Shown: positions 5,877 through 62,084, counted from the first letter of the stretch. The stretch is DNA of 64,000 bases from Candidatus Pacearchaeota archaeon (GCA_018303825.1 JAGVXK010000020.1:8569-72568); one strand, 5' to 3'. The notes: generated from the sequence alone by a model not told the origin. Translations and numbers: made by a program.

Positions 5877-6742
5877 TTATCTGCTTATACTTGCTAATCG
5901 AATTAATCCTAACCAATGATTATCCCCAAAATTTAACTTTTGTCCTGCCCGGTTACATGGAACTTCATCTAATGTTGTATGTGCTTCTATGAAGTTATGC
6001 TGAATAACCAAAGCATTCATTAAAATTGGGGCAGACCATAAAGCTTTCAATCCTCTAAAGTCATCAACTCTATCTTTAATCTTCATAAAAACGGTTTCTA
6101 TTCGGTAGTTATGTATTTTAGTAACACTTGCATTTTGTATTTTATGCTCAATTGTTAAACCACCAATTTTATTAGAATAGAAGAGTTTTCTAAATGCTCT
6201 TGGATAGAAAACACCTCCATCAGTTTGAATAAATCTTGGCTTTCCTTTTTGAATTGACTTAAAAAGGAATTTTTGTGCTTCTATTGGATTGCCTGACAAA
6301 CTATAATGAGCCCCTGTAATTAATCGGGTATCCCAATCAATACAACACCAAAATCTATCATCTCTCCCTCCGCAATCAATTAAGGTTTCATCAGCATAAA
6401 AATTATTTCCCATGTTATACCCTAACTTATCAACAAACTTGCTGACTTTTAATGTATATCTTCTTACCCAGTCAAGAATGCTCATATGGCTTATTTTCGT
6501 GTTTAGATGTCTGCTTAACTGATTTCTCATTTTCCTACTTGACAGATTAGAAATATACATATCGATTGACATTGTAATAATCTTTTCATTATTTCTCATT
6601 CTGTAAAAGCCATTATCGAAGACAAAACGATAATTACAAATCTTACATCTGTATCTTTGGATTTTTCCTCTTTTTCTGTTGTTCTTAATTCATCTTTCTT
6701 AATGCTTTTCTCTTCACAATGTGGACAAACTATCTCTTTCAT
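5877..6742 (-). CDS. IS6-family-like DDE transposase, N-terminal CxxC...CxxC zinc finger in a different frame (-1 frameshift needed)
   Basis: ADETLI ... IQTDGG ... NYRIETVFMKIKDR spacing resembles IS6 DDE. Frame from ATG 6742 gives MKEIVCPHCEEKSIKKDELRTTEK. The main frame continues RGKIQRYRCKICNYRF... after the A-run at 6670-6676. Confidence 0.65.
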
Positions 6743-21796: not shown

Positions 21797-22453
21797 ATGG
21801 AAAGCTTTATAAAAAAAATATTAACTGGAAAAGGGGATGAAGATTCTCATAAGTATTTAATTAGGTTTGGAAAGGGAGCTTATAATAGAAGATTTTTGAT
21901 AAGTTATGCAAAATCAGCCGATAAAATAAAGATAAAAACAAGCTTTGAATTCGCAAATGATCTTGTCAAATTTATTAGAGAGAATAAAGATGTCAAGTTT
22001 TCGGGAAAAGTGCTTTCAAAACAGCAAGTTTCTGGGATGTCTGGAAGAAAAAAAGCAGGAGTATACTTATATGAAATGACAGATTCAGATTTAAGGGGTT
22101 TTGACAATCCATATTATTTCCTGCTTGATGCTAATGACTCTGACATTGTTTTAAAAATGAAGAAATCATTGCCCAAACCAGGAAAAAATTCTGAAAAAAT
22201 AGATGATGGTTTCTGCTCTTTAATAATATCAAATAAATATTGGCAGAAAGTGAAAGAAACTTTTTTTTGGGATGTTCCAGATGGAAAGAAAGCAGAAATT
22301 GAACATAAGCTGGATATCAAAGAAATTATCCTTCCAAAAAATGAGAAAGACTCTGTTAAAATAAGAGAAAACTCACTAAGAAAGGGGGCGATAACGAGAA
22401 AGATTAATGTTGATGGCAAAGAGGAAAGCAAGAATATTAATTTTGAAGCCTAA
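21797..22453 (+). CDS. Hypothetical protein
   Basis: 218-aa ORF preceded by GTTTATAAATA about 25 nt upstream. Confidence 0.55.
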   Translation: MESFIKKILTGKGDEDSHKYLIRFGKGAYNRRFLISYAKSADKIKIKTSFEFANDLVKFIRENKDVKFSGKVLSKQQVSGMSGRKKAGVYLYEMTDSDLRGFDNPYYFLLDANDSDIVLKMKKSLPKPGKNSEKIDDGFCSLIISNKYWQKVKETFFWDVPDGKKAEIEHKLDIKEIILPKNEKDSVKIRENSLRKGAITRKINVDGKEESKNINFEA

Positions 22454-25173: not shown

Positions 25174-25237
25174 ATACGTATTATTACGTATAAATACTTA
25201 AGAATACATTTAAATACTAATTATTACGTATTGTACT
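25174..25237. promoter_or_regulatory. Repeated TTATTACGTAT / TAAATACT boxes upstream of the RHH gene (candidate operator/promoter)
   Basis: TTATTACGTAT at 25181-25191 and 25221-25231; TAAATACT at 25191-25198 and 25210-25217; TACGTA palindromes. Confidence 0.35.
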
Positions 25238-25306: not shown

Positions 25307-25471
25307 ATGAAAAGAGAAAAAGACAAGCTGACAATCCTCATAAACAAGGAAGTCAAGGACAAATATAAGGAATTCTGCGAAAAAAAAGGCCTGAAAATAG
25401 GAAAACAAGTTGAGATATTCATGCAAACTGAACTAGAAGCTGAAAATAAAAGGGGGAAAAATGCAAAATAA
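25307..25471 (+). CDS. Small ribbon-helix-helix (CopG/Arc-like) protein, 54 aa (below the ORF-track cut-off)
   Basis: MKREKDKLTILINKEVKDKYKEFCEKKGLKIGKQVEIFMQTELEAENKRGKNAK: beta-strand then two helices; overlaps the next gene by 11 nt. Confidence 0.5.
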   Translation: MKREKDKLTILINKEVKDKYKEFCEKKGLKIGKQVEIFMQTELEAENKRGKNAK

Positions 25472-26216
25472 AAAGGGGCAGATGATAATATGGGTAATAG
25501 TTGCCATTGCAATAGTTGTAACAATTGTTATCCTTTTCTTTTTTAAGATAAAGCCAAGCTTCCTGCCGCAGCAAATATCATCTCCGGAAGCGTTCATACA
25601 AAAATGCGCTGGATATAACGTCCTTGAAGCAGTGGATAAAATGATGCCACAGGGTGGTTTTGTCAATCCGGAAAACTACAAGGTTTATCAAAATACCAAG
25701 ATAGAGTATCTGTGCCAGAATCTTGGAAATTATCTTTCCTGCATAAATCAGCACCCTGCTCTATTGAATGAAGAAAAAGAAGAAATAAAGAATTACATAT
25801 CGCCTAAAATTGAAAAATGTTTCAATGATTTAAGGGACGAACTTGGAAAAAAGGGAGAAAATATAGTATATGGTAAAATGAATCTTGATGTTTTCCTCGC
25901 TCCAAGAAGAATAATTGTTGAAATTGAAAGAGAAACAACAATATCAAAAAGTGGAGAAATAAATAGATTTAATAATTATAAAACTGAAATTGAATCCCCG
26001 TTATATGAATTGGCTAATGTGGCGAATGAGATTGCAAGCAATGAAGCAAAATATTGCTATTTTGAATATGTGGGATATATGATTCTTTATCCCGAATTTG
26101 ACATAAGAAAGTTTACAATGAGCGATTCGACAAAGATATATACTATTGAGGATAAAGAATCCGGAAAGAAGTTCAATACCGCCATAAGGGGGTGTGCAAT
26201 TCCTGCTGGAATCTAG
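25461..26216 (+). CDS. Pilin-like protein with class III-type signal (KKGQ + hydrophobic helix); paralog of 30295-31128
   Basis: MQNKKGQMIIWVIVAIAIVVTIVILFF; shares QGG(F/Y)xNPE, YLCxN...C and C-terminal CAIPAG/PPGYG-type end with 30295-31128. Confidence 0.65.
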   Translation: MQNKKGQMIIWVIVAIAIVVTIVILFFFKIKPSFLPQQISSPEAFIQKCAGYNVLEAVDKMMPQGGFVNPENYKVYQNTKIEYLCQNLGNYLSCINQHPALLNEEKEEIKNYISPKIEKCFNDLRDELGKKGENIVYGKMNLDVFLAPRRIIVEIERETTISKSGEINRFNNYKTEIESPLYELANVANEIASNEAKYCYFEYVGYMILYPEFDIRKFTMSDSTKIYTIEDKESGKKFNTAIRGCAIPAGI

Positions 26217-26229
26217 GCAAAGAAAAATT

Positions 26230-29200
26230 ATGAAGAAAAAAAGTAAAAAGATAAGAGGTGAAAAGATAATTGTTCTGTTTGAAATCTTGCTGGCAGTATC
26301 TATAGCTATAACAACTTCTTATTTTATTCACGAATCTGCAGTAAGTCTGGTTAATTCGGATTTAAACAATGATGTAAATGACGAAAGCAAAATTGCAGAG
26401 CTTGCAATTGTTCTTGGATTTTTTGGAAAGATAATATTTGGAGAAAAAGGAATTGTTTCTGCTCTTGAATCTAGTGACTTGCAGAATGGAGCATATACCT
26501 GCTTGAAAACAAAAAATAACTCTATATGCCAGGAGTTTCCGGCAAGTGAATGCAACTCTAACTGCCAGGCAAATTGCGTTCCAACTGGAAGAAATTTAGT
26601 ATCTCAATGCCTGATTGGAACCTGCTATGATAAAGATGAAGGGACCTGCTCAACTGGAAGTCCAAAACAAGCTTGCGAAGACCATAGCGGGCAATGGTTT
26701 AGTGACCAATATGGAAATATTCAGGAATGCAAAAAAGGATGCTGCATCCGGGGAGAAAATGCCAACTTTGTTACCGAACAGCAATGCGCTGCATCTGCCG
26801 CAGGGCTTGGAATAGTGAAAAATTTCAAGCCTGAAACAAATAATGAACTTTCCTGCATACAGCAAAGCAAAACACAGGAACAAGGCGCTTGTGTGTTTGA
26901 ATCTGAATTTGAGAATACATGCAAGTTTACGACAAAGGCTAATTGCTTGACTCTTGGAGGAGGATTTTATTCTGGATATCTTTGCTCAACTGCTGAGTTA
27001 CAGACAAATTGCAAACCTCAAGCCACAACTTCCTGCATTAATGAAAAAGATGAAGTATATTGGTTTGACTCCTGCGGGAACAGGGAAAATATATATGATG
27101 CTAATAAAGTCAAGAGCTTTAATAATGGAAAGGTATTGAGCAAGAATGAATCCTGTTCTTTGGGGACATCATCAAATGCATTTTCAAATAAAAATATATG
27201 TGGGAACTGCAATTATCTTCTTGGAAGCACTTGCGGGTTGAAAGAATCAGGAGACAGCATATATGGAAATTCTATATGCAAAGACCTTAGATGTAAAGAT
27301 GAAAATGGAGCAGTAAGACAAAATGGAGAATCCTGGTGCGCATATCAGGGAGCGATAGGGATTGATAAAGGAGTTGGCACAACAAAAGACAAGCAACCCC
27401 TTTTCAGGTCAATTGATGTTGTTGGAAGCAGAAATTTCAGAAAAGTCTGCATCGATGGAGAAGTAAGAATAGACCCCTGCGCAGATTATAGAAATGAAAT
27501 TTGTGTCCAAGCAGATACAAAAGCAGGAAGCAAAACGTTCTCGTCTGCGGCATGCAGAATAAACAGATGGCAGCAGTGCCTTGAATATAACACACAAATT
27601 CAAACTGACAACAATCCAAACGGAATAACAATAGAACAGAGAAACACCAAATGCACGGAAAACTCTGATTGTTTTATTAAATCTGTAAATCTTGGAAAAG
27701 GATTTAGTTTTGGCATGTGCGCTCCAAAATATCCAGAAGGATTTGATTTATCAGATACAAATTCAGGCAGTGGCGCCGAGGCAATATGTTCTTTTGCTTC
27801 TCAGAAATGCACAGAAGTATGGGTCAAAGATGTGGGTGGTAGCTGGGAATGTGTAGCTAATTGTCAATGCCATACGACAAAGTTCTCGGAACAGATGAAC
27901 GATTTATGCATTAGTTTGGGCGATTGCGGAACAAAGGCAAATGTTCGGGGAGAAGTTACATATAATAGCAAAGTTTTTCGAAGTAATAATGTGAAGAAGC
28001 TCGGAAAAGATGTTACATTAAAAGGAAAGGGATGGTTCCCTGCCGATTATGTTTCAGCTTTGAAAAAATATTCAGATTATGAAAATTCACCGAATAAATT
28101 TGCTGCTCCTGGAAATCTAAGCGCTTTCTACGGCTCGCTTGGAATACCTGAAGGATTAGGAAGTGCCCAAACACCAACAGATCCTGCAGCTGCTTTAGGA
28201 AGTATTGGAATGATTGCTGGGATGACTGGAATTTTGCTGGTTGCTCTATCATATACTGGTGTTGCTCTTGGGGCTGGTGCTGCAGCTTTCTTTGCCGGTG
28301 CTGCTTCTGTTACTGGAGCGCATGTCGGAAGTGCCGCTGTAGGTGCTGCTGTAGCAGCCAATCCTGGGATGGTTGCGGCTGGTGGAGCTTTGGCCGGAGC
28401 AGCAATAGGATTCGCGGTTGTTTCTATGCTAATTCAGTTTACAGGAATAGGGGGAGCGATCGGAGAAGAGGGAGCATATGCATTAATGGCTGCTGGAGCA
28501 GTTGCTGGGGCAATTATAGGAGCGAATATTGCTGCAGGTACTTCTGCCCTTGCTGGTATGGGTCCATTAGGAGCTTTTGCCGCCGCAGCTCTGACTTTTG
28601 CGATAGTAATTATAATAGCCGTAGTCGTGTTCATAATCATAGAAGCGATACTTGGAGCAGGGGATATAAAGAAAGTGACATATACTTTCCAATGCCAGCC
28701 ATGGCAGGCTCCGCTTGGTGGAAAAGATTGCAACAAATGCGGAAAAAATGAATTGCCATGCGGAAAATATGAATGCCAAAGTCTTGGACAGACATGCCAA
28801 TTTATCAACGAGGGAACAGGGCAAGAAGCCTGCGTAGATGTAAGTCCAAATGATGTTAGTTCTCCAATTATAAATCCACTTCAATCTGTATTAACGCAAG
28901 GATTTAGTTATAATGATGTAAGTGATTCCGGATTTAAAATAAAGAGCAATGAAAATGATGGCTGCTTGAAATCTTATCAGACATTAATATTTGGAATAGG
29001 GACAAATGAAGCCAGCTATTGCAAATTTGAAGCAAACCATACTGCAAGTTTTGAAGAAATGGAAAGTGATTTGGGGGGAAGCAACTTGTTCTTGATAAAT
29101 CACACACAGATAGTGCAAATACCAAGCTTGGATAGTCTAGGAATTCCAGGATATGATCCTGAAAGAAAAGCAGATTACAGCTTATATTTAAGATGCCAGG

Positions 29201-30294
29201 ATAAATCTGGAAATGCAAATGTGAATGAATATGTTGTGAACTTTTGCATTAAACCTGGAAATGACTTAACACCACCTGTTGTTACAGGACAAGAGCCAAC
29301 ATATAACTGGTTGAAATATAATTCAACGGATATAAAGGCTTCTGTATTCACAAATGAGCCAAGTGATTGCAAATGGGATAAATTAGATACTGGCTATGAG
29401 CAAATGCAGAATAATATGACTTGCAAGAATGGGCTTGATGAGCAAGAGCTTCTTGGATGGAGATGTTCAAGCACATTCCCAATAACAGCAAATGATAATT
29501 CATTTTATGTTAAATGCAAAGATCAACCCTGGCTCATGGACACACCGAGCGGGCAGCAAATAATTGTAGATGATAAGATAAATGCTTCTGAATTAGATAA
29601 TGTTGATCAGGATATATTAAATGCTATCAATAATCCGGCAACAATAAATACAACTGGAAAGCAAAGAAATGCCATGTCTACAAGCTACCTTCTTTCATTC
29701 AAGAGAACGCAAAGCCAATTAAACATAGATTATTTGAAACCAGATAATCAGACTATTGTTTCGGGAGTTGAACCTGTTTCGGTTAAAGTAGAAGTAAAAA
29801 CTTCTGGGGGAGTTGATGGAAAATCAGATTGCCAATATCAGATAAGATCAGAAAGATATCTTCCTTTGACTGGCGATACGTTTGTTCCTCCTAGAGTGAG
29901 CGAGCATAGCATTATTTTGCAGCTATTCAATGGTGAGCACTGGCTTTATGCAAAATGCTGGGATAATGCAGGAAATATCGCGGAGAAAACTACAAGATTT
30001 GGTGTTGAAATTGACACAACTATGCCTATTGTTACAAGAGTTTACAACTCAAATGGATTAAATGTGATTACTGACGAGAATGCTGAATGCACCTATTCCC
30101 CCTCAAATTGCGAGTTCAGCTTTGAAAATGCAACATTGATGGATGGAAGTGAATTAATTCACACAACGAGATTCAATGCCAATTCAATTTACTATGTTAA
30201 ATGCAAAGATAAATATGGGAATGCGCCCGGAGGATGCAGTATAGTTGTAAAGGGAGTTGACTTAAAACCTGAAATTCAAGGAAGTGGAGTATAA
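26230..30294 (+). CDS. Giant (~1354 aa) Cys-rich surface protein: Cys-rich N-half, Gly/Ala-rich hydrophobic core, C-half with repeated Cys-pair modules
   Basis: Track ORF starts at GTG 26194, first ATG 26230 (MKKKSKKIRGEKIIVLFEILLAV). N-half is homologous to 31125-32774 and C-half to 33414-35669. Confidence 0.85.
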   Translation: MKKKSKKIRGEKIIVLFEILLAVSIAITTSYFIHESAVSLVNSDLNNDVNDESKIAELAIVLGFFGKIIFGEKGIVSALESSDLQNGAYTCLKTKNNSICQEFPASECNSNCQANCVPTGRNLVSQCLIGTCYDKDEGTCSTGSPKQACEDHSGQWFSDQYGNIQECKKGCCIRGENANFVTEQQCAASAAGLGIVKNFKPETNNELSCIQQSKTQEQGACVFESEFENTCKFTTKANCLTLGGGFYSGYLCSTAELQTNCKPQATTSCINEKDEVYWFDSCGNRENIYDANKVKSFNNGKVLSKNESCSLGTSSNAFSNKNICGNCNYLLGSTCGLKESGDSIYGNSICKDLRCKDENGAVRQNGESWCAYQGAIGIDKGVGTTKDKQPLFRSIDVVGSRNFRKVCIDGEVRIDPCADYRNEICVQADTKAGSKTFSSAACRINRWQQCLEYNTQIQTDNNPNGITIEQRNTKCTENSDCFIKSVNLGKGFSFGMCAPKYPEGFDLSDTNSGSGAEAICSFASQKCTEVWVKDVGGSWECVANCQCHTTKFSEQMNDLCISLGDCGTKANVRGEVTYNSKVFRSNNVKKLGKDVTLKGKGWFPADYVSALKKYSDYENSPNKFAAPGNLSAFYGSLGIPEGLGSAQTPTDPAAALGSIGMIAGMTGILLVALSYTGVALGAGAAAFFAGAASVTGAHVGSAAVGAAVAANPGMVAAGGALAGAAIGFAVVSMLIQFTGIGGAIGEEGAYALMAAGAVAGAIIGANIAAGTSALAGMGPLGAFAAAALTFAIVIIIAVVVFIIIEAILGAGDIKKVTYTFQCQPWQAPLGGKDCNKCGKNELPCGKYECQSLGQTCQFINEGTGQEACVDVSPNDVSSPIINPLQSVLTQGFSYNDVSDSGFKIKSNENDGCLKSYQTLIFGIGTNEASYCKFEANHTASFEEMESDLGGSNLFLINHTQIVQIPSLDSLGIPGYDPERKADYSLYLRCQDKSGNANVNEYVVNFCIKPGNDLTPPVVTGQEPTYNWLKYNSTDIKASVFTNEPSDCKWDKLDTGYEQMQNNMTCKNGLDEQELLGWRCSSTFPITANDNSFYVKCKDQPWLMDTPSGQQIIVDDKINASELDNVDQDILNAINNPATINTTGKQRNAMSTSYLLSFKRTQSQLNIDYLKPDNQTIVSGVEPVSVKVEVKTSGGVDGKSDCQYQIRSERYLPLTGDTFVPPRVSEHSIILQLFNGEHWLYAKCWDNAGNIAEKTTRFGVEIDTTMPIVTRVYNSNGLNVITDENAECTYSPSNCEFSFENATLMDGSELIHTTRFNANSIYYVKCKDKYGNAPGGCSIVVKGVDLKPEIQGSGV

Positions 30295-31128
30295 ATGACA
30301 AGGAAAATGGAAGAGAGAAATTATTATAAACTAAAAAAACGAGAAACTGGCATGAATGGGGGGGTAAAAGTGAGCAAAAGGGGTCAGATAGCTATCTTTG
30401 TTATAATTGCGATAGTTATCATTGCTGTGATACTTGTGATAATGCTTTATCCTAAAATAAAAATTATCACTGGTGGCACTCCAAGTCCTGAAGAATTTTT
30501 GAAGTCATGCATTGTAAATGATGTTAAAAGTTCTGTTGATTTGCTTGCAAAGCAGGGAGGATATGCAAATCCTGAAGGATTTTATGTTTACAACGACCAA
30601 AAGATAAAATTCTTGTGCTACACAAATGAATATTACAAAACCTGTGTTGTCCAGCAGCCGATGATAGAGACTCATTTTGAGCAGGAAATGGACAGAATCT
30701 TAGAGCCAAAAGCAAGAGATTGTTTAACAAAATTAAAGCAGGAATATGAAAGCAGGGGATATTCTATAACTGGAAATTTTATTGATGCAAAAACAGGCAT
30801 AGAACAGGGAAAAATAAAAGTGATTTTCAATTCACCACTAACAGTAACAAAGGCTTCAACTGAAAGATTTAATGATTTTGAAATAGGTATAGACAGCAAG
30901 ATGTCTGACCTTTTAGCTATTGCGCAAAGCATTGTGGAATTTGAGTCAGTATATGGCGATTCTGAAACTACCGCATATATTCAATACTATCCTGATTTGA
31001 GAATAGAAAAAATAAAATTAAGCGAAGGCACAAAGATTTACAAACTTTCAGATGTAATTACTAAGGAAGAGTTTGTATTTGCTTCAAGAAGCTTATCCTG
31101 GCCTCCAGGATATGGGGTTTCACAATGA
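30295..31128 (+). CDS. Pilin-like protein with class III-type signal (KRGQ + hydrophobic helix); paralog of 25461-26216
   Basis: ...VSKRGQIAIFVIIAIVIIAVILVIML; TAAATG junction with the upstream gene; start may be the internal ATG at 30352. Confidence 0.65.
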   Translation: MTRKMEERNYYKLKKRETGMNGGVKVSKRGQIAIFVIIAIVIIAVILVIMLYPKIKIITGGTPSPEEFLKSCIVNDVKSSVDLLAKQGGYANPEGFYVYNDQKIKFLCYTNEYYKTCVVQQPMIETHFEQEMDRILEPKARDCLTKLKQEYESRGYSITGNFIDAKTGIEQGKIKVIFNSPLTVTKASTERFNDFEIGIDSKMSDLLAIAQSIVEFESVYGDSETTAYIQYYPDLRIEKIKLSEGTKIYKLSDVITKEEFVFASRSLSWPPGYGVSQ

Positions 31129-32774
31129 TGAATATAAACAATAGGAAGAAAAACGATAATATTAACAGCATCAGCAGTTATAGATTAATTATAACTTTAT
31201 CAGTTGTTAGTCTGTTGTTTATTATACTATTAAGCTTTGGTGTGAGTGCGGAAGTAAATGCAACTTCATGCTGTGAAAAAACTACATCAGGATTTTACTG
31301 CCAGAATGCTCCTCAAAATGAGTGCAATGCTAATTTTAGAAATGTTCCGAGCGCCTGTGAATCCACTTCTTATTGTAGATTGGGAACTTGCTATGATTCG
31401 AACAAAGGAACATGCACAGGAAATACTCCTGAAATAGTCTGCAATAAGGAAAGAAATGGGACATGGTTTGAAACTCCCCCGGCTCAATGTAGTTTAGGAT
31501 GCTGTGTTCTCGGGGATCAGGCGGCTTTTGTTTCTCTTGTCAGATGCAAGAAGCTTTCAGCGTCATTTGGATTGCAAACAAATTTTGACAAGACAATAAC
31601 TAATGAAGTTTCCTGCGTATTGAGCGTGCAAAGCCAGGATAAAGGAGCCTGTGTGTTTGAATCCGAATTTGAAAAAACATGCAAGTTTACAACAAGGGCA
31701 GATTGTAGTAATACTGTAAATGAAAATGGAACAAGCGGAGAATTCTTTAAGGGAAAGTTATGCACTGCTCCCGAACTAGGAACAATCTGCGGGAAGACAA
31801 CTGAAACACTTTGCGCCCCAGGAAAAGATGAAGTCTACTTTAAAGACACATGCGGAAATCCTGCAAATATTTATGATTCTTCAAAGATAAATGACGCTGA
31901 TTATTGGGCTAATATAAGAACGAAGTTAGAATCTTGCAATCCTGATAAGGACAATGGAAATTCTAAGAGCTGCGGAAACTGCAATTATCTTCTTGGAAGT
32001 TTCTGCAGAAATAGCAAAGATGCAGGCTCTAGCGCAACCTATGGAAATAACATATGCGCAAATCTGAATTGCAAAAACACGCAAAACGGAAATTCTTACA
32101 GGCATGGAGAATCATGGTGCGTTCAGAATGATGCCGGAACAACAAACCAGGGAGATAATTCTGTAGGAAGCAGATTTTACAAGCATATCTGCATAAATGG
32201 AGAAGAAGTTCTTGAGCAATGCGCTGATTTCAGACAGGAAGAATGCATAGAAGATACAATAAAAACAAATGCTGGAGATTTTTCTCAAGCTGCATGCAGG
32301 GTTAACCGATGGCAGGATTGTTTAGTGCAAACAAGCAAGAGTGATTGCGAGAACACTGATAAGAGGGACTGCTTATGGAAGGAGGGAATTTCACTGAATT
32401 CAACAAAAGCAAGCAAAGACGATGGAGTATGTATTCCTAAGAACACTCCAGGATTGCAATTCTGGGCAAGCACTACCTCCAGCGCTGTTGGAAGCGCAGG
32501 AACAAGTACAAGTGCAATTTCAGGAACAGATGCGCAGGCGGTTTGCGGACAGGCAAATACCAAATGTGTTGTTACTTATGAAAGTGGATTATTCAGTGGA
32601 GAGAAATGCGTTGGGAATTGTGAGTGTCTTACTGATACATGGGCAAAAGAAAGAAACCAGGTTTGTGTTGCATTAGGAGACTGCGGTCCAAAGATAAACT
32701 GGCTGGGACAGCAGGGATATAAACTTGGATTTAACATCACGGTAGGAAAAGTAAAAACAGGAGAAAAGAAATGA
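31125..32774 (+). CDS. Cys-rich secreted/anchored protein, paralog of the N-terminal half of 26230-30294
   Basis: Shared strings GACVFESEFE(N/K)TCKFTT, CGNCNYLLGS, GESWC, AACR(I/V)NRWQ, LGDCG(T/P)K; ATGA overlap on both sides. Confidence 0.85.
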   Translation: MMNINNRKKNDNINSISSYRLIITLSVVSLLFIILLSFGVSAEVNATSCCEKTTSGFYCQNAPQNECNANFRNVPSACESTSYCRLGTCYDSNKGTCTGNTPEIVCNKERNGTWFETPPAQCSLGCCVLGDQAAFVSLVRCKKLSASFGLQTNFDKTITNEVSCVLSVQSQDKGACVFESEFEKTCKFTTRADCSNTVNENGTSGEFFKGKLCTAPELGTICGKTTETLCAPGKDEVYFKDTCGNPANIYDSSKINDADYWANIRTKLESCNPDKDNGNSKSCGNCNYLLGSFCRNSKDAGSSATYGNNICANLNCKNTQNGNSYRHGESWCVQNDAGTTNQGDNSVGSRFYKHICINGEEVLEQCADFRQEECIEDTIKTNAGDFSQAACRVNRWQDCLVQTSKSDCENTDKRDCLWKEGISLNSTKASKDDGVCIPKNTPGLQFWASTTSSAVGSAGTSTSAISGTDAQAVCGQANTKCVVTYESGLFSGEKCVGNCECLTDTWAKERNQVCVALGDCGPKINWLGQQGYKLGFNITVGKVKTGEKK

Positions 32775-33400
32775 GAAAACAATTAATTTCACTTATTGCT
32801 GCGGGTGCTCTTGCTGCAGGATGTGCTACTGAACAGGATTCCCAGAGAGGACTTGGAATGCTGATTGCTGCAGCTATTCCCGGAAATGCTGCTGCGCAAA
32901 TAATCGGTGGGGGATTGATTAGCGGAGCTAATTCACAACAGCAGGGACTTGCAACAGCTCAATATCGAAACCAACAGGCACAACAATATCAACAACAAGT
33001 ACAGCAGTTTGTATCTGGGAATGTTAAGGAAGTTACATTCCAATTAAATGCAAAAAGAGGTGATGAATATGGTATAGGAATAAATACAAAATTAGACATT
33101 GCAAATGGTGTTGGAAGACAATTTAGGTGCGACACTTATTTCTGCTATGAAGATGAAAGTCCGTTAATGGGTGGAAAGGAAGGATTTAGAACAACTGAGG
33201 GAGGGGTAGTTCTCCCTGGAACGATTTTTGAAGTGCCATATCAAATCTCGGAGGTTAATCACTTTATGTTTATGCCAAGTAGCCAGCTGGTAGTTGAAAG
33301 GCCAGGAAAACAGATAATAAGATTTGTTGTTGTCTTAGAAGATATAGCAACCAGAAGAACATTATCTGTCAGCAGACCGAGTTATTTTAGTTATAGATAA
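32771..33400 (+). CDS. Lipoprotein-like protein (lipobox-like LAAGC), Gln-rich linker
   Basis: MRKQLISLIAAGALAAGCATEQ...; present only in the split module, exactly between the N-half and C-half genes. Confidence 0.6.
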   Translation: MRKQLISLIAAGALAAGCATEQDSQRGLGMLIAAAIPGNAAAQIIGGGLISGANSQQQGLATAQYRNQQAQQYQQQVQQFVSGNVKEVTFQLNAKRGDEYGIGINTKLDIANGVGRQFRCDTYFCYEDESPLMGGKEGFRTTEGGVVLPGTIFEVPYQISEVNHFMFMPSSQLVVERPGKQIIRFVVVLEDIATRRTLSVSRPSYFSYR

Positions 33401-33413
33401 AATAAAAAATAAG

Positions 33414-35669
33414 ATGAAAAAGCAAAACGAAAGGAAGGAAATAAGGAAGAAGAAAGCAATTTCAATAGTTGAAATTTTCTTAATGATAAGCGTGAGCTTT
33501 GCCGTTGCATTTTCACTTGGACAAAATTTTGTGAGCGCAGATGTGACATCTTTACTTCCGGTTCCATTGAGCAAAGTTTACAGAGGTGGCCCACTTCCGG
33601 CTCCAACAGGTTCAGCATCAGGAGCCGCATTGGGAGCAGACACTTTTCCACCACAGACAGCTCTTTCACAAGACGGAGTTATTGTGGTTGCCGATAAAAC
33701 TACTGGGGGTGTGTCTCAATTTACATGGGACAATCCAATTAAAAAAATATACAGCGGACAGGCAACGTCTGGAGTTGGTGGTTCTCTTGTTGCAGGTGTA
33801 GCATGGGCAGCAACTGCATATATAGCAGTTAAATTAATAGGAAGTTTTCTTGGATTAAAAGATGGACAGCAGAAAGCATTGGAAAATGCTGCTCTTGCAG
33901 GAGGATTCACGGCAGGATTCTTGAGTAGTGCTGCCACTAACGTTCCAGGATTGTTCGGAGCTGCAACTCCAGGATTGGCTGGAAGCGGGGGAGCACTTAA
34001 TTTTATGACTTTCGGGGGAGGAGTTCCGGCAGGATTAATTATAGCTGCAGCAGTATTCATATTGACATATACAGATGAGAAAAAAGAAGTTGTTACTTAT
34101 TTGTGTCTGCCTTATGAGCCGCCGATAAAAGGAGAGAAATGCGAGCAGTGCAACAAAGACCCTTTCAAGCCTTGCTCTGAATATAGATGCAAGGCTCTTG
34201 GGCAGGCTTGTGAATTAGTTGACAAGGGAACTGGACATGATAAATGCGTCTGGGTGAATAAGTTTGATGTTAAAAGTCCTACAATATCTCCATTGAAATC
34301 AGCTTTGACAACAGGATTAAAATATGACCCTGACAATTCAATAAGGCCCCCAAACAGGGGAGTTAAAATAGTCAATCCATTAAATCAAAATGGCTGTCTG
34401 CAGGCATTTACAAAGTTAACATTTGGAATTACAACAAATACATCTGATGAAAATTCAGAGCCAGCAAGGTGCAAGATTGATTATACAAGAGGCAATTCAA
34501 CAGGGAAAGCAGGATTTGACTCGATGCAGTATTATTTCGGAGGAAGCAATTACTTTGAATACAATCATGTTCAGGAAATGAAACTGCCGAGCCCTAACGC
34601 AACGGGAGTTGACCTTGGACCATTGTTGAAGAATGGAGAGACAGCAACTCTTTATGTTAAATGCATGGATGCAAACGGAAATGTGAATGAAGATGATTTT
34701 GTGTTCACATTCTGCGTTGACAAGGGACCGGACACAACACCCCCAATAATAGAAGCAACTTCAATTAACAATGACGCTTATGTGCAGTACAATGCTGATA
34801 GTGTGCCTATAGATGTTTATGTGAATGAGCCCGCAGAATGCAAGTGGTCCAGAATAGACAAGTCATTTAATGACATGGAAAACAATATGAATTGTGCGAC
34901 AAAGACTTATGAAGTTAACTCGCAGTTGACATATACTTGCTCCGGGAGTTTGACTGGAATAAAGAATGAACAGGATAACATATTCTACTTCAGATGCAAA
35001 GACCAGCCAGGCAAGCCGGAGAATGAAAGATATTCAATGGAGCAAAGCTATGTATTAAATTTGAAAGGCTCAAGACAATTAACATTGATAAGTTTAATTC
35101 CGAATGAGACAATAAGGGGAAATACTGAAGTAGTCCCTGTTACATTGGAAGTTCAAACAGGCGCAGGAGCTGAAGAAGGAAAAGCTGTCTGCTACTTCTC
35201 TTCAACCGGAGATAAAGATTCGTATGTGGCGATGTTTGAAACAGATAACTACATCAGTCGACAAACACTTGACTTGACTGGAAGTCTGGCAGGAATTCCT
35301 TACAAATATTATGTGAGATGCGTTGATGCAGGAGGGAATGCAGCAGAAGGAAGTACAGGATTTACAATATTCGTTGACAAAAACCAGCCAATTGTCACGA
35401 GAGCATATAAAGAAGTTCCAGATGCACTGAAAATAGTTACAAATGAAGATGCACAATGCGTGTATTCTCTTAATTCGTGCAATTATAATTTTGCTGACGG
35501 GAAGCAAATGTTGTACATTGACACAAGTGTATTGAATGTGCACGCAGCAGAATGGAAGAATAATGCTTATTATTATATTAAGTGCAAAGACAAATATGAG
35601 AATCAACCGAGCCCTAATGCTTGCTCGATAGTTGTGAGCGCAATTGAACTAACTCAGAGAAATGCTTAG
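33414..35669 (+). CDS. Membrane/surface protein, paralog of the C-terminal half of 26230-30294 (Gly/Ala-rich hydrophobic region plus repeated Cys-pair modules)
   Basis: Shared strings TPP(V/I)(V/I), NEP(S/A)(D/E)CKW, F(Y)(V/F)(K/R)CKDQP, PIVTR(V/A)Y, YY(V/I)KCKDKY(G/E)N; N-terminus KKKAISIVEIFLMISV. Confidence 0.85.
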   Translation: MKKQNERKEIRKKKAISIVEIFLMISVSFAVAFSLGQNFVSADVTSLLPVPLSKVYRGGPLPAPTGSASGAALGADTFPPQTALSQDGVIVVADKTTGGVSQFTWDNPIKKIYSGQATSGVGGSLVAGVAWAATAYIAVKLIGSFLGLKDGQQKALENAALAGGFTAGFLSSAATNVPGLFGAATPGLAGSGGALNFMTFGGGVPAGLIIAAAVFILTYTDEKKEVVTYLCLPYEPPIKGEKCEQCNKDPFKPCSEYRCKALGQACELVDKGTGHDKCVWVNKFDVKSPTISPLKSALTTGLKYDPDNSIRPPNRGVKIVNPLNQNGCLQAFTKLTFGITTNTSDENSEPARCKIDYTRGNSTGKAGFDSMQYYFGGSNYFEYNHVQEMKLPSPNATGVDLGPLLKNGETATLYVKCMDANGNVNEDDFVFTFCVDKGPDTTPPIIEATSINNDAYVQYNADSVPIDVYVNEPAECKWSRIDKSFNDMENNMNCATKTYEVNSQLTYTCSGSLTGIKNEQDNIFYFRCKDQPGKPENERYSMEQSYVLNLKGSRQLTLISLIPNETIRGNTEVVPVTLEVQTGAGAEEGKAVCYFSSTGDKDSYVAMFETDNYISRQTLDLTGSLAGIPYKYYVRCVDAGGNAAEGSTGFTIFVDKNQPIVTRAYKEVPDALKIVTNEDAQCVYSLNSCNYNFADGKQMLYIDTSVLNVHAAEWKNNAYYYIKCKDKYENQPSPNACSIVVSAIELTQRNA

Positions 35670-35816: not shown

Positions 35817-36029
35817 TTATTTTTGCTGGACTTCATAGCCGCCAAGGGCATCATAAGGCTGTTTTCCCTCTCCTCCGCCCTTCAGATATTTTTCCCCTCT
35901 TTCCTCAATACTATTGAATGGAAATGGGTAATAAGGCTTCCGGGCACCAATGCTTCTGCATCCACAATTAGAAGTTAAGACTACAATTCCTGCTGTGAGA
36001 AGAACTATCTTTAACAGCTTGCTTACCAT
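35817..36029 (-). CDS. Small lipoprotein-like protein
   Basis: MVSKLLKIVLLTAGIVVLTSNCGC...; ORF only. Confidence 0.35.
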   Translation of the reverse strand: MVSKLLKIVLLTAGIVVLTSNCGCRSIGARKPYYPFPFNSIEERGEKYLKGGGEGKQPYDALGGYEVQQK

Positions 36030-48223: not shown

Positions 48224-48328
48224 GCGTTATAGTCAATTTATCTTCATGTCACCACTGCTTCACGTATGTTGCAGTTGAATTTTATGGCTTAAAATAAACC
48301 TAAATATGCGCTAATAAACTAACTTGTA

Positions 48329-48347
48329 GTTCTGGTGCTACCAGAAC
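48329..48347 (-). other. Hairpin GTTCTGGT-GCT-ACCAGAAC downstream of the target gene stop / upstream of TR
   Basis: 8-bp perfect stem; stem sequence related to the 48117-48131 hairpin. Confidence 0.5.
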
Positions 48348-48382: not shown

Positions 48383-49210
48383 TTACTTTTTAAAGAAATC
48401 AGCAACCTTTCTCAGTGAAGCTGTGCCTCTCTTACCTTCAATAACACCATCTATTATAGTTAAATATTGTTTTGCCTGTCTCGGAGTATAACCACGAACT
48501 TTTGGCTCGTTAATTTGGCGCGAAGTGCCTTCGGCACTTTCCACAGAAACCCCAAAGACAGAGCCATAATCATCGCTCAGGCTCCTGTCGTTGCAGATGA
48601 AGGCAGACCTGTAGTTCCTGTCAAGCCCGTCCAACCAGTGTCCTCTTGCATAATCTTCCCCAGTTATTCTTGGCAAATAAACAGTAACTTCTGGCAATCT
48701 CAAATTCTCTGGCAATTCATTTCTTAAAAATAATCCATATCTATTAGCTAATTCTGGACTTTCAGCTTTCCATCTTATTGTTGGATCATCAGCAAAACTA
48801 TCTGTTGGAACTGGATGAGTTTTAGCCTGTCCAAGATTCAAAACCCTTTTTTGTTCTAAAGGTTTTATTTCATCTTTTTCAGCTATCTGCCTAAGTACTT
48901 GAGTAAATGGTCTCTTGCCTTTTCTTATTTCATCAGTTAAATAAAATTCGCCTGTTCTCTGAGCTTCTACAGCTTGTTTTGCATAGGGAATAAGCGGATT
49001 AAATTCTGCTCTTGCCAGCAATATTGCTCCATCAACAACATTAGAATCTTCTGCTGTCCAAGCTCCTCCTTCAAAATGTGTTTGATCATTAACTCCTCTT
49101 TCTAATCTATCTTCAATAAGTTCTCTTCCTGTAGAAACACGCTTATTTGCATTCTTAGCTTGTGCTAAACAATATGCCCAATTTCCTTGGTCAATTCTTT
49201 GTAATTTCAT
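48383..49210 (-). CDS. DGR target (variable) protein, 275 aa, VR near the C-terminus
   Basis: Contains the VR (WLDGLDRNYRSAFICNDRSLSDDYGSVFG); no N-terminal hydrophobic signal visible. Confidence 0.85.
   Translation of the reverse strand: MKLQRIDQGNWAYCLAQAKNANKRVSTGRELIEDRLERGVNDQTHFEGGAWTAEDSNVVDGAILLARAEFNPLIPYAKQAVEAQRTGEFYLTDEIRKGKRPFTQVLRQIAEKDEIKPLEQKRVLNLGQAKTHPVPTDSFADDPTIRWKAESPELANRYGLFLRNELPENLRLPEVTVYLPRITGEDYARGHWLDGLDRNYRSAFICNDRSLSDDYGSVFGVSVESAEGTSRQINEPKVRGYTPRQAKQYLTIIDGVIEGKRGTASLRKVADFFKK
48523..48539 (-). other. Hairpin AAGTGCC-GAA-GGCACTT (coding strand) 9 nt downstream of VR
   Basis: 7-bp GC-containing perfect stem, 3-nt loop, inside the coding region just after the adenine-free GGCTCTGTCTTTGG end of VR. 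Confidence 0.6.
48548..48638 (-). repeat. DGR variable repeat (VR)
   Basis: See TR; in frame within 48383-49210. Confidence 0.88.
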
Positions 49211-57260: not shown

Positions 57261-57791
57261 ATCTGATGTTGATGTGCTTAGATACAAATATCTTAGATAT
57301 AAATATCTTTGGTAATCAAATGTCAGAATAAGAGATAATCAAATAAAACAAGCAGAAGAGAATCATGTTATAATTCCTGGACTTTGAACCAAGAATTGTA
57401 TTTTATGTTTTCATATATTTTTATGTATATTTCTACGCGCAAATAATTTAAAATTATTATGAGGCTTTTAGTAGATGCATGCTGAACCCCTCGTTTTCTC
57501 GGGGCGTACACATCATCTCTATCAACGTCATCTTCTTTGACGGCCTTAGTTGTCTCGTCTTGCGGACGGCTTCGCACTTAGATGCTTTCAGTGCTTATCC
57601 GTAAATGCGTAGCTGCGCGGCCTGCTCATAACAACCGCTATACCAGAGGCATCCGATTACCGTTCCTCTCGTACTAGATAATCGTTCCACTCAGACAACA
57701 GCGCGCCTAGTAGATATCATACATACTGTCTCGCGTATATACTCAAAACTTATTTATTTGTTTTGTATGGACTATACCTTCACCCTTGTCA

Positions 57792-57871
57792 ATGTTTAAA
57801 CCGAAATAATTATCTTATACGCCTACTTTGATAAGCGATGTACGAGCTAACTACTTAATCTAACCCTTGAA
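57792..57871. repeat. ~80-nt repeat, copy 1 (inside the 23S domain V insertion)
   Basis: ATGTTTAAACCGAAATAATTATCTTATACGCCTACTTTGATAAGCGATGTACGAGCTAACTACTTAATCTAAC, roughly 85-90 percent identical by eye to 58169-58250. Confidence 0.75.
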
Positions 57872-58168
57872 TGAGGGGATTCGCGTTTTACCTATCTTTG
57901 TAAAAGATAAGTCTTAGGAATTTAATCCTAAAGTCTCTACGGGGTCAATTCTAAGCGAACCTTACGGTTCTCTTACAAACTCTCCCTTGCATTTCTGCTT
58001 AGGGCTAGTTAAAACGACTTCCCTCGGGGTTACCATCTTATTACAGTATTGAATAAGAAGACTTCACCGATATGAGCGAATTTTATTTTTCATGAAATTG
58101 CTTTCATGCTACGCCGCGATGTGAATTATTGTTTGTTTTTCGTGGTTTGCGTTCTTGTTTGTGTTATT

Positions 58169-62053: not shown

Positions 62054-62084
<31 letters not shown>

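What the first reader, a model, noticed from the sequence alone, without database searches (positions are those of the whole stretch)
25307..35669. 10.4-kb twin-module surface-protein cluster: one module fused, its paralog split with an extra gene at the split point
Eight same-strand genes are tightly coupled (11-nt overlap at 25461, TAAATG at 30292-30297, ATGA overlaps at 31125 and 32771). After a small RHH gene, the layout is [pilin-like 251 aa][giant ~1354 aa] followed by [pilin-like 277 aa][549 aa][lipoprotein-like 209 aa][751 aa]. The 549-aa protein is colinear with the N-half of the giant protein. Shared strings are GACVFESEFE(N/K)TCKFTT, CGNCNYLLGS, GESWC, AACR(I/V)NRWQ and LGDCG. The 751-aa protein is colinear with the C-half. 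Both have a Gly/Ala hydrophobic block, then C(N/E)(K/Q)C..PC..Y.C..LGQ.C, TPP(V/I)(V/I), NEP..CKW, PIVTR.Y and YY.KCKDKY.N. This is therefore a duplicated cassette caught in fused and split states. I recognise no characterised family for any of the large proteins. In a putative small-genome archaeon, a large Cys-rich, membrane-embedded surface apparatus is a candidate cell-cell attachment or host-interaction system (speculative).
Basis: partly seen in the sequence, partly recalled or inferred. Interest (0 to 1): 0.85.

Follow-up and report, generated by a model that had tools for sequence, protein, structure and literature searches.

The report
Conserved twin surface-protein operon in Pacearchaeota
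This is a real seven-gene operon, shared by a large group of tiny uncultured archaea (Pacearchaeota), that encodes an uncharacterised, cysteine-rich, membrane-anchored cell-surface complex in two ancient paralogous versions (one fused, one split); its job is unknown, and a role in contact with a partner cell is my best guess.

Summary
Seven (not eight) tightly coupled same-strand genes lie at 25307-35669. The 1354-aa giant is colinear with the 549-aa protein (E=1e-91) and the 751-aa protein (E=1e-94). The two ~260-aa proteins are paralogues (E=8e-34).

The interpretation needs correcting. This is not a cassette caught in transition. The order small regulator, PA, giant, PB, N, (lipoprotein), C recurs in more than 80 Pacearchaeota-type genomes, and each paralogue has its own orthologues. 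C keeps the giant's N-terminal anchor, so the split came from duplication and complementary loss, not simple fission.

PA and PB carry conserved prepilin-type signals. The N-module is a novel disulfide-rich fold with no PDB, viral or Pfam relative. The C-module is a Cys knot plus four Ig-like (Big_13-type) domains behind a glycine-zipper membrane hairpin.

Conserved cysteine counts (N 43, C 21, giant 64) predict one N-C disulfide. The core is as conserved as LysRS. The "extra gene" occupies a recurrent lipoprotein slot that is hypervariable; here it is a sequence orphan.

Function is unproven. I favour a regulated cell-contact complex (about 0.4) over an S-layer-like scaffold, a membrane conduit or a pilus-tip set.

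The parts
25175..25231 (+). Candidate operator: TACGTA palindrome x3 (25175, 25185, 25225) and exact 11-mer TTATTACGTAT x2 (25181, 25221; 40 bp apart) in the intergenic region upstream of the operon
   Evidence: Three of the window's seven TACGTA sites lie here (2.5 expected for the whole window). The 11-mer occurs exactly only here. Not conserved in related loci. A role as operator is inferred.
25307..25471 (+). 54-aa small DNA-binding protein, probably ribbon-helix-helix (Arc-like); likely operon regulator; overlaps PA by 11 nt
   Evidence: Weak hits only: PHROG Arc-like repressor E=0.0013, phrog_33224 E=5e-5; Pfam RepB-RCR_reg E=0.004 and DUF6364. A small regulator overlaps the PA start in 44/62 loci, but from non-homologous families (wHTH or RHH).
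25461..26216 (+). PA: 251-aa type-IV-pilin-like protein (class III signal KKG|QMIIWVIV..., then a ~214-aa globular domain with 6 conserved Cys); paired with the giant
   Evidence: [KR][GA]Q plus hydrophobic helix conserved in orthologues. 328 homologues, all unnamed. No recurrent Pfam hit or PDB sequence hit. PA->G gap median 0 nt, 56/65 at <=10 nt.
26230..30294 (+). G: 1354-aa fused giant = N-terminal anchor + Cys-rich N-module + linker + Gly/Ala membrane block + Cys knot + four Ig-like domains
   Evidence: 911 homologues, all 'hypothetical'; 60 Cys columns conserved in >=80% of orthologues; median 64 Cys per protein, 64 in the window's copy.
26485..27939 (+). G residues 86-570: disulfide-rich N-module, paralogous to the 549-aa protein
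   Evidence: The split paralogue's AF2 model has no structural relative.
28180..28683 (+). G residues 651-818: Gly/Ala-rich hydrophobic block with glycine zippers; predicted multi-pass membrane hairpin(s)
   Evidence: 18% Gly, 17% Ala; [GAS]xxxGxxx[GAS] 5.1 per 100 aa against 0.9 in AI-2E transporter TM segments. Length varies 75-275 aa.
28684..30264 (+). G residues 819-1345: membrane-proximal Cys knot (819-870) and four Ig-like domains, paralogous to the C-terminal 525 aa of the 751-aa protein
30295..31128 (+). PB: 277-aa type-IV-pilin-like protein (KRG|QIAIFVII...), paralogue of PA; paired with N
   Evidence: 70/83 orthologues fit the strict motif; 83/83 PB-type; PB->N gap median -4 nt.
31125..32774 (+). 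N: 549-aa secreted Cys-rich protein (Sec-type signal, VSA|EV read by eye; 43 conserved Cys; no membrane tail)
   Evidence: AF2 pLDDT 76.9; no fold match; 57% identity to orthologues; 1,476 clusters at 50% identity; 0/71 orthologues have a hydrophobic tail.
32771..33400 (+). Lpp: 209-aa lipobox-type protein (LAAG|C), Gly/Ala/Gln-rich tether plus a C-terminal domain; occupant of a hypervariable lipoprotein slot upstream of C
   Evidence: 30/36 loci with gap genes have a lipobox ORF; 39/73 gap ORFs against 26/1069 background; orphan: only self-hit in 5.8 billion proteins; unrelated to the giant's linker; native GC3.
33414..35669 (+). C: 751-aa protein = giant-type N-terminal anchor (1-44) + variable linker (45-120) + Gly/Ala membrane hairpin (121-225) + Cys knot (226-280) + four Ig-like domains (281-745); 21 conserved Cys
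   Evidence: AF2 pLDDT ~90 over 230-745; 433 PDB hits, tandem Ig-like; N-terminus aligns with giant N-termini; Big_13 hits in 35/40 orthologues.

Best explanation
This is an ancient, vertically inherited operon of Pacearchaeota-type DPANN archaea. It builds a stoichiometric, disulfide-rich complex on the outer face of the cytoplasmic membrane.

There are two paralogous units. One is the single-chain giant G. The other is the two-chain N + C. Each unit has three parts: a novel Cys-rich head, a glycine-zipper membrane hairpin, and a membrane-proximal Cys knot followed by a stalk of four Ig-like domains. Each unit is co-translated with its own type-IV-pilin-like partner (PA with G, PB with N).

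Export is by Sec-type signals (G, N, C), a class III prepilin-type signal (PA, PB) and a lipobox signal (Lpp). N has no anchor and is predicted to be tied to C by a single interchain disulfide, which would be the intrachain link in G. A small DNA-binding protein encoded at the operon start probably regulates it.

Most likely function (inferred, not shown): a regulated cell-contact or attachment apparatus. Its conserved core is the machine, and its exposed, fast-changing element is the lipoprotein encoded just before C.

Shown or directly supported by computation: paralogy, conservation, synteny, signal motifs, predicted folds, cysteine pattern. Inferred: topology, the disulfide link, complex formation, function.

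The confidence of 0.4 is for the whole statement including the contact function. That it is a conserved membrane-anchored surface complex I hold at about 0.85.
For: Paralogy.

The order PA-G-PB-N(-Lpp)-C recurs: 38 loci have it in full and 25 more have PA-G-PB-N, many with little contig left after N. Orthology is clean: 75/76 N, 78/79 G N-halves, 71/71 PA, 83/83 PB.

Coupling: PA->G gap median 0 nt and PB->N -4 nt.

Export signals: the class III motif is conserved in PA and PB only. N orthologues have no membrane tail.

Folds: the C-module is tandem Ig-like by structure and by recurrent Big_13 hits in 35/40 orthologues. The N-module is a confident model with no relative.

Cysteines: nearly all are invariant. 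Conserved counts are N 43, C 21 and G 64, with odd totals in 81%, 88% and 16% of orthologues respectively. Losses in N occur in pairs. N and C are both odd in 31/39 loci.

Conservation is at housekeeping level (N 57%, PA/PB ~50%, G and C 44%, against LysRS 48%), and no domain is hypervariable. GC3 is native.

The lipoprotein slot is hypervariable and stays next to C even when C is displaced from N.

A regulator slot is filled in 44/62 loci.

Cultivated DPANN are ectosymbionts that depend on host contact (abstracts listed), and lineage-specific extracellular families of unknown function have been reported for Pacearchaeota (PMC8204110).
Against: No expression, localisation or binding data exist, because Pacearchaeota are uncultured.

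The large proteins evolve at housekeeping rates across an order-level clade that presumably has diverse partners. That is not what host-specific adhesins usually do.

The lipoprotein slot is empty in lineages where N and C abut, so it cannot be an obligatory specificity subunit.

No pilus-assembly ATPase, platform protein or prepilin peptidase lies near the operon in the window or in four related loci.

Topology is unproven. AF2 confidence in the membrane block is low, and a conserved KxKK after the last hydrophobic segment runs against the positive-inside rule for an external C-module.

Sequons are not enriched.

The Ig-like fold matches are generic: adhesins, S-layers and receptors score alike.
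Confidence: 0.4

Rival explanations
1. Structural envelope scaffold. The complex is the S-layer, or an S-layer-like stalk-and-canopy lining the pseudo-periplasm, of Pacearchaeota. C and the giant's C-half would be the membrane-anchored stalk (SlaB-like), and the Cys-rich heads would be the canopy.
For: Present in every surveyed locus, within core-genome synteny between the AI-2E transporter/CobA genes and Hjc/LysRS. Fixed domain lengths and uniform purifying selection. Ig-like arrays are typical of archaeal S-layer proteins; the Deinococcus HPI S-layer is among the fold hits, and the S-layer candidates of Nanobdella are multi-Ig-like (10.1101/2023.10.27.564410).
Against: S-layer proteins are generally poorly conserved above genus level, heavily N-glycosylated, and anchored by a terminal TM helix or not at all. 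Here conservation equals or exceeds LysRS, sequons are not enriched (observed/expected 0.55-0.76), and the anchor is a central or N-proximal Gly-zipper hairpin. A six-protein, translationally coupled operon with its own regulator is unlike the one- or two-protein S-layers known.
Confidence: 0.25
2. Membrane conduit. The Gly/Ala glycine-zipper helices of G and C, together with the PA and PB helices, form an oligomeric pore. The ectodomains dock it to a partner cell for uptake of host lipids or metabolites, that is, the base of a feeding bridge.
For: The membrane block has 18% Gly and 17% Ala and about five times the glycine-zipper density of ordinary TM segments from the same genomes. Glycine zippers are a hallmark of tightly packed channel-forming helices (established knowledge: Kim et al. 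2005 PNAS). An essential uptake machine would explain housekeeping-level conservation. Cell-to-cell interaction structures have been imaged in other DPANN (PMC11329633, listed; abstract only read).
Against: The sequence and length of the block are poorly conserved (26-30% identity, 75-275 aa), unlike a precise pore. C has only two or three predicted helices. There is no energising component (ATPase) in the operon. AF2 gives low confidence there. GxxxG is only modestly above the level expected from composition (7.2 against 5.0).
Confidence: 0.15
3. Pilus-tip or minor-pilin set. PA and PB are minor pilins that present G and N/C at the tip or base of a type IV-like filament assembled by machinery encoded elsewhere, as with bacterial minor pilins and PilY1.
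For: Conserved class III signals on PA and PB. One pilin-like gene is coupled to each head-bearing gene. Archaeal TFF loci with an adjacent adhesin remotely related to PilY have been described (bioRxiv 10.64898/2026.04.22.720090).
Against: G and C have their own multi-helix membrane anchors and lack class III signals, which does not fit transport to a filament tip. No ATPase, platform protein or peptidase lies in any surveyed neighbourhood. PA and PB match no pilin family in Pfam or the PDB.
Confidence: 0.1
4. Recent or foreign element: a recent tandem duplication with a pseudogenising split, an assembly artefact, or a viral, mobile or defence island.
For: Local G+C is higher than in the flanks. 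A transposase and a homing endonuclease occur elsewhere in the window.
Against: GC3 equals the genome background for the six envelope genes; the extra G+C lies in codon positions 1 and 2, from Gly/Ala/Cys-rich composition. The same arrangement occurs in more than 80 independent assemblies with separate orthologues of each paralogue. There are no PADLOC hits, no significant PHROG hits for the large proteins, and no viral fold match.
Confidence: 0.01

Closest known systems
Sulfolobales S-layer pair SlaA/SlaB and the multi-Ig-like S-layer candidates of DPANN (NEQ300; MJ1_0160 and MJ1_0707 of Nanobdella)
   Same: Sec-exported archaeal envelope proteins built from arrays of Ig-like beta-sandwiches, with a membrane-anchored stalk component plus a second large component (fold class).
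   Different: No sequence or family relationship. The anchor is a Gly-zipper hairpin rather than a terminal helix. Extreme, invariant cysteine content. No sequon enrichment. Much higher conservation. Encoded with two pilin-like genes, a regulator and a lipoprotein in one coupled operon.
Type IV pilus minor-pilin/PilY1-type tip complexes, and archaeal TFF subsystem 4A with an adjacent adhesin
   Same: Pilin-like proteins with class III signals encoded next to a large surface protein.
   Different: No assembly ATPase, platform protein or peptidase nearby. The large proteins carry their own membrane anchors. The globular domain of PA and PB matches no known pilin.
Sulfolobus bindosome (sugar-binding proteins with class III signal peptides); from my own knowledge, not tested here
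   Same: The precedent that archaea use prepilin-type signals to hold non-filament proteins on the membrane surface, which is how PA and PB may behave.
   Different: Bindosome subunits are ABC-transporter binding proteins assembled by BasEF/BasABC. Nothing comparable is present here.
Bacterial Ig-like (Big_13) adhesins, cadherin-type ectodomains, and the GhpA grappling hook
   Same: The C-module is a rod of four tandem Ig-like domains. Foldseek E down to 9e-12; Big_13 hits in 35/40 orthologues.
   Different: The hits are fold-level and below Pfam's curated cut-off. There are no Ca-binding cadherin linker motifs. The domains carry conserved Cys pairs and follow a unique Cys knot directly after the membrane.
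Giant extracellular proteins proposed for DPANN host interaction (murein-transglycosylase family fam00969 of Pacearchaeota/Woesearchaeota; SPEARE proteins of Nanohaloarchaeota)
   Same: Large, lineage-restricted DPANN surface proteins suspected of a role in symbiosis (PMC8204110; PMC6642349 appears, and the SPEARE description is from my own knowledge).
   Different: Those carry recognisable enzymatic domains. The proteins here have none, are smaller, and come as a conserved multi-subunit operon.

Membership tests
Type IV pilin-like proteins (class III signal peptide), for PA and PB | N-terminal [KR][GA]|[Q/A..] cleavage motif followed by a ~20-residue hydrophobic helix | tested here: met
   Strict FlaFind-type motif in 55/72 PA and 70/83 PB orthologues, almost all KGQ, RGQ, KAQ or RAQ; 5-8 chance-level matches in G, N and C.
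Type IV pilin-like proteins (class III signal peptide), for PA and PB | Genomic association with TFF machinery (secretion ATPase, platform protein, prepilin peptidase) | tested here: not met
   None in the 64-kb window among the 28 flanking proteins scanned, and none within +/-10 kb in L001, L003, L005 or L006. The rest of the genome was not searched.
Type IV pilin-like proteins (class III signal peptide), for PA and PB | Sequence or profile membership in a described pilin or archaellin family | tested here: not met
   No Pfam family recurs among 55 members. No PDB sequence hit with the profile.
Archaeal S-layer proteins | Membership in a known S-layer family, or heavy N-glycosylation with a terminal anchor | tested here: not met
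   No family hits. Sequon observed/expected 0.55-0.76. The anchor is internal. There is no C-terminal TM helix or PGF-CTERM-type tail in the sequences.
Archaeal S-layer proteins | Very high abundance and formation of a 2-D lattice | not testable with these tools
   Needs expression data or cryo-ET.
Big_13 / bacterial Ig-like domain proteins (C-module) | Pfam PF19077 match and an Ig-like beta-sandwich fold | tested here: inconclusive
   35/40 orthologues hit Big_13, best E=5e-6. The window's own proteins score below the curated cut-off: 16 bits against 27. The fold is clearly tandem Ig-like.
Fusexins / HAP2-type class II fusogens | Three-domain class II fusion-protein fold | tested here: not met
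   The N-module has no PDB or viral match at E<=0.001. The 50 C-module matches shown are generic Ig-like arrays, with no fusexin or HAP2 entry among them.
Lipoproteins (lipobox), for Lpp | Signal peptide ending in a lipobox with an invariant Cys | tested here: met
   LAAG|C at residue 18. The same type of motif occurs in 39/73 gap ORFs against 26/1069 background ORFs. Actual lipid modification in these archaea cannot be tested here.
Ribbon-helix-helix (Arc/CopG) regulators, for the 54-aa protein | Profile match to an RHH family | tested here: inconclusive
   Only weak hits: PHROG Arc-like E=0.0013, Pfam RepB-RCR_reg E=0.004.
Anti-phage defence or phage-derived island | Match to PADLOC or PHROG families | tested here: not met
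   No PADLOC hit for any protein. No PHROG hit for G, N, C, PA or Lpp; PB has one weak spanin hit (E=0.005) over its TM helix.

The most novel reading that the evidence does not exclude
The operon encodes a previously unrecognised kind of archaeal envelope machine: a pseudo-symmetric heterodimer (single-chain G beside disulfide-linked N-C). Its glycine-zipper helices, together with two pilin-like helices, would form the membrane base of the host-contact or feeding conduit of Pacearchaeota. The hypervariable lipoprotein would act as an exchangeable specificity or decoy subunit. If so, this would be the first molecular handle on how this large uncultured DPANN clade couples to its partners.
Probability: 0.15. 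Interest if true: 0.9.

Novelty: new variant of a known kind. Interest (0 to 1): 0.62.

Why it matters
Pacearchaeota are among the most abundant and least understood DPANN archaea. None is cultured, their partners are unknown, and published surveys report only that lineage-specific membrane or extracellular families "completely lack functional predictions" (PMC8204110).

This work assembles five such unnamed protein families, plus a variable lipoprotein slot and a regulator slot, into one defined operon with a clear gene order. It is as conserved as a tRNA synthetase and was found in every surveyed relative.

That gives concrete targets for antibodies, cryo-ET labelling, metaproteomics and AF-multimer modelling. 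It also gives sharp, falsifiable predictions: a single N-C disulfide, PA:G and PB:N pairing, and an external Ig stalk.

The locus is also a clean natural example of a paralogous pair kept for a very long time as a single chain and as two chains, produced by duplication and complementary loss rather than by fission.

Tried and rejected
1. Prepilin signal with Glu+5 on G and C. A few sequences fit [KR][GAS]xxxxE, but only 2-11% overall. What is conserved is a signal-anchor helix, (E/Q)I(F/L)L(I/L)..FAFS(F/Y), often followed by a VSA site.

2. Lpp as a remnant of the giant's linker or membrane region. No similarity (one earlier coordinate error).

3. Fusexin or viral glycoprotein reading of the N-module. 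No PDB or BFVD fold match.

4. Defence system or prophage. No PADLOC hits and no significant PHROG hits.

5. Horizontal transfer to explain the higher G+C. GC3 is native for the six envelope genes.

6. N-glycosylation sequon enrichment as evidence for external location. Not enriched. Only one homologous NHT site is conserved in both paralogues, plus one further site in each.

7. Conservation of the TACGTA operator in relatives. Absent: 1/63 loci.

8. Mapping the operon to Module 222 of Castelle et al. 2021. The stored supplementary table is truncated.

9. Literature searches for a prior description. Nothing specific found.

10. Bacterial promoter and terminator scans. At chance level, and not applicable to archaea.

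11. A membrane-spanning tail on longer N orthologues. None: 0/71.

Full report
**Observation.** The region 25307-35669 holds seven same-strand ORFs, not eight. They are:
- a 54-aa RHH-like gene, 25307-25471;
- PA, 251 aa, 25461-26216, overlapping the RHH gene by 11 nt;
- the giant G, 1354 aa, 26230-30294;
- PB, 277 aa, 30295-31128, with the junction TAAATG read directly;
- N, 549 aa, 31125-32774, starting at an ATGA overlap;
- Lpp, 209 aa, 32771-33400, starting at an ATGA overlap;
- C, 751 aa, 33414-35669.

G aligns colinearly with N (E=1e-91, 35% identity) and with C (E=1e-94, 31%). PA aligns with PB (E=8e-34). Pfam, NCBIfam, PADLOC, PHROGs and PDB sequence searches give nothing significant for the large proteins.

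**Whose genome, and how widespread.** G is identical to NCBI J4217_03810 of a Candidatus Pacearchaeota archaeon. It has 911 homologues, and every one that a source names is called 'hypothetical'. An exhaustive HMMER search with N finds 1,476 clusters at 50% identity with E<=1e-3 and 683 at <=1e-30, with fused (~1,200-1,500 aa) and split (~480-690 aa) forms interleaved. A scan of GTDB species representatives returned at least 405 encoding stretches, and I kept 80 loci from Pacearchaeota, 'Woesearchaeota' and Nanoarchaeota MAGs. The window itself is ordinary core genome: FtsZ, ribosomal proteins L1, L10 and L11, LysRS, Hjc, and rRNA.

**The arrangement is ancient, not transitional.** I classified ORFs in 83 non-redundant loci.
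- 38 loci show PA-G-PB-N-C and 25 show PA-G-PB-N, many with little contig left after N. The remainder are truncated loci or minor variants, including two loci with tandem G copies.
- Each paralogue has its own orthologues. 75/76 split N proteins are N549-type and 78/79 fused N-halves are giant-type. 44/48 split C proteins are C751-type. PA and PB separate 71/71 and 83/83.
- Cross-paralogue identity is about 30%, while orthologues are 44-62% identical.
- The flanking synteny (AI-2E transporter, a 218-aa unknown protein, CobA on one side; Hjc and LysRS on the other) is also conserved.
- GC3 of the six envelope genes equals the genome background. The raised G+C comes from codon positions 1 and 2.

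So the duplication and the split predate the radiation of this clade, and both have been kept by selection.

**How the split arose.** The N-terminal 44 residues of C (KKKAISIVEIFLMISVSFAVAFS...VSA) align with the N-terminal signal anchor of the giants, for example KKRAVSYFEILLLIGMTFAFSY...VSA. They do not align with the middle of the giants. C is therefore a giant-like copy that lost its N-module, and N is a giant-like copy truncated after its N-module. This is duplication followed by complementary degeneration, not a stop codon splitting one gene. That history also leaves room for a gene between N and C.

**The parts.**
- *PA and PB.* Both carry a conserved class III (prepilin-type) signal, [KR][GA]Q plus a hydrophobic helix. 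The strict motif is present in 55/72 PA and 70/83 PB orthologues. G, N and C lack it. Their ~214-aa globular domain has 6 (PA) or 4 (PB) conserved Cys and matches no recurrent Pfam family and no PDB sequence.
- *N-module.* The AF2 model is reasonable (pLDDT 76.9, 190 residues at >=90). It has no structural relative in the PDB or BFVD; the best hit is a 50-residue fibronectin-type-I finger at E=0.25-0.3. It appears to be a new disulfide-rich fold.
- *C-module.* It models with pLDDT around 90 over residues 230-745. It consists of a membrane-proximal Cys knot followed by four Ig-like domains. There are 433 PDB matches at E<=0.001, spread over PTP-delta, cadherins, the GhpA grappling hook, the HPI S-layer and RTX adhesins. 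Big_13 hits occur in 35 of 40 orthologues.
- *Membrane block.* Between head and stalk lies a Gly/Ala-rich hydrophobic block with 18% Gly and 17% Ala. Its glycine-zipper density is 5.1 per 100 aa, against 0.9 in AI-2E transporter TM segments from the same genomes. Its length and sequence vary, and AF2 confidence there is low.
- *N has no anchor.* None of 71 N orthologues has a membrane-spanning tail.

**Cysteine arithmetic.** Nearly every Cys is invariant.
- N has 43 conserved Cys, and 81% of orthologues have an odd total.
- C has 21, and 88% are odd.
- G has a median of 64 (64 in the window's copy, the sum of 43 and 21), and only 16% are odd.
- PA has 6 and PB has 4.
- Where N has lost conserved Cys, it lost them in pairs (481+501, 495+499, 499+501). 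C never loses any of its 21. N and C are both odd in 31 of 39 loci.

The simplest reading is that the cysteines are disulfide-bonded, with one unpaired Cys each in N and C. Those two would form an interchain bond in the split unit and the corresponding intrachain bond in G. This is an inference. It also supports placing both modules on the same (outer) side of the membrane.

**Conservation.** Median identity to the window's orthologues, within the same genomes, is N 57%, PA 49%, PB 50%, G 44% and C 44%. The comparators are LysRS 48%, AI-2E transporter 47.5%, CobA 68.5% and Hjc 70%. The Cys knot (51-59%) and the N-module are the best-conserved regions. Domain lengths are tightly fixed, and no domain is hypervariable. 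That is unusual for exposed surface proteins.

**The 'extra gene'.** The window's Lpp has a lipobox (LAAG|C). It is a sequence orphan: among 5.8 billion proteins it matches only itself. It is unrelated to the giant's linker. Its position, however, is not an accident.
- In 30 of 36 loci with genes between N and C, at least one encodes a lipobox-type small protein. That is 39/73 gap ORFs against 26/1069 background ORFs.
- Where C has been displaced several kb from N, such a gene still sits directly upstream of C (L005, L006, L065, L078).
- These proteins share an outline: a lipobox, a Gly/Ala/Gln-rich tether, and a C-terminal domain that looks beta-rich by eye. No structure was predicted for them.
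- In lineages where N and C abut, there is no such gene.

So this is a hypervariable accessory slot next to a housekeeping-grade core.

**Operon grammar and regulation.** The PA->G gap has a median of 0 nt, with 56/65 at <=10 nt. The PB->N gap has a median of -4 nt, with 50/65 at <=10 nt. The G->PB gap has a median of 35 nt. A 40-110-aa same-strand ORF overlaps or abuts the start of PA in 44/62 loci. It comes from non-homologous families: a ~61-aa winged-helix type in most loci, a ~47-aa 'KERISATVD' RHH type, or the window's own type, which is shared with L012 and L018. In the window, three TACGTA palindromes and two exact copies of TTATTACGTAT sit just upstream. That is a plausible operator, but it is not conserved elsewhere.

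**What it most likely is.** The computations support a stoichiometric, membrane-anchored surface complex made of two paralogous head-hairpin-stalk units. Each unit is paired with a pilin-like protein, and the operon is regulated by a small DNA-binding protein. The surface location, topology and subunit pairing are inferred, not measured.

Function is also inferred. I favour a regulated cell-contact or attachment apparatus, at about 0.4. The reasons are the adhesin-like Ig rods, the receptor-like Cys-rich heads, a dedicated regulator, a hypervariable exposed subunit, and the ectosymbiotic lifestyle of cultivated DPANN (abstracts).

- *S-layer-like scaffold, about 0.25.* Its universality fits. 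The points against it are the high conservation, the lack of sequon enrichment, the internal anchor and the multi-gene coupling. Known DPANN S-layer candidates differ on each of these.
- *Glycine-zipper conduit, about 0.15.* It would explain housekeeping-level conservation. However, the block is variable in sequence and length, and the operon has no energy source.
- *Pilus-tip set, about 0.1.* The anchors on G and C and the absence of nearby assembly genes count against it.
- *Recent or foreign element.* Excluded.

**Novelty.** I found no paper describing this operon. Castelle et al. 2021 note Pacearchaeota-specific modules of membrane or extracellular families without any functional prediction. 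I could not check whether these families are among them, because the stored table is truncated. The building principles are known: Ig-like stalks, prepilin-type anchors and lipoproteins. The N-module fold, the PA/PB domain and the overall twin architecture match nothing described. I rate it a new variant of a known kind (an archaeal multi-subunit surface complex), with a 0.15 chance that it is a categorically new envelope or contact machine.

Noticed in passing
window 57448-62130 (-), ORF 59356-60111 (-): The 23S rRNA gene spans 4,683 nt against a 2,987-nt Rfam model, so it carries about 1.7 kb of insertion(s). A LAGLIDADG homing-endonuclease ORF lies inside it, so this is probably an rRNA intron with a homing endonuclease. 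The 3' end of the 16S gene is at 63807-64000, and tRNA-Ala lies in the spacer at 62589-62660.
   Followed up: partly
window 48224-48346 (-): Rfam RT-16 RNA motif (78.5 bits, E=1.6e-10), directly 3' of a 275-aa ORF (48383-49210, -) that has no Pfam hit.
   Followed up: no
window 5877-6599 (-): IS240-type DDE transposase (PF13610, E=9e-11) within an otherwise core-gene region.
   Followed up: no
window 25175-25231: Three TACGTA palindromes and two exact TTATTACGTAT copies 40 bp apart, upstream of the RHH gene. This is a candidate operator, specific to this genome.
   Followed up: partly
window 35817-36029 (-): A 70-aa ORF convergent with C that has a signal-like N-terminus and a lipobox-like ...LTSNCGC motif, resembling the 'CGC' lipoboxes of some slot lipoproteins in other loci. 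Its conservation was not checked.
   Followed up: no
related loci, immediately upstream of PA (e.g. L006, L003, L012): The regulator position is filled by non-homologous small DNA-binding proteins: a ~61-aa winged-helix type ('VTSSEIAK.L.ISWNTA'), a ~47-aa RHH type ('MKERISATVD...YRNKSHVIE'), or the window-type RHH. This looks like non-orthologous displacement at a fixed slot.
   Followed up: partly
L057 (34-4040 and 5198-9030), L072 (292-3905 and 4860-8525): Two fused giants in tandem ahead of PB-N in these genomes, so further duplication of the fused unit occurs.
   Followed up: no
window 21797-22453 (+): A 218-aa protein of unknown function (no Pfam hit), syntenic with the AI-2E transporter just upstream of the operon in most loci. 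It is poorly conserved, with a median identity of 35%.
   Followed up: no
L058 (JACQIA010000010.1), L085 (JAUUWR010000018.1): Contigs carrying the full operon are labelled 'Candidatus Aenigmatarchaeota archaeon' and 'bacterium' in their records. These are probably taxonomic mislabels or mis-binned contigs.
   Followed up: no
window 25461-25484: One public gene call (P0121, JGI, 244 aa) starts PA at the internal Met (MIIWVIV...), which removes the KKGQ prepilin motif. Conservation of [KR][GA]Q across orthologues supports the longer start.
   Followed up: partly
window 3098-5365 (+); L003 20021-21247 (-): A 755-aa ORF with a weak DUF5667 hit (E=5e-4). A DUF5667 protein also lies near the operon in L003.
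   Followed up: no
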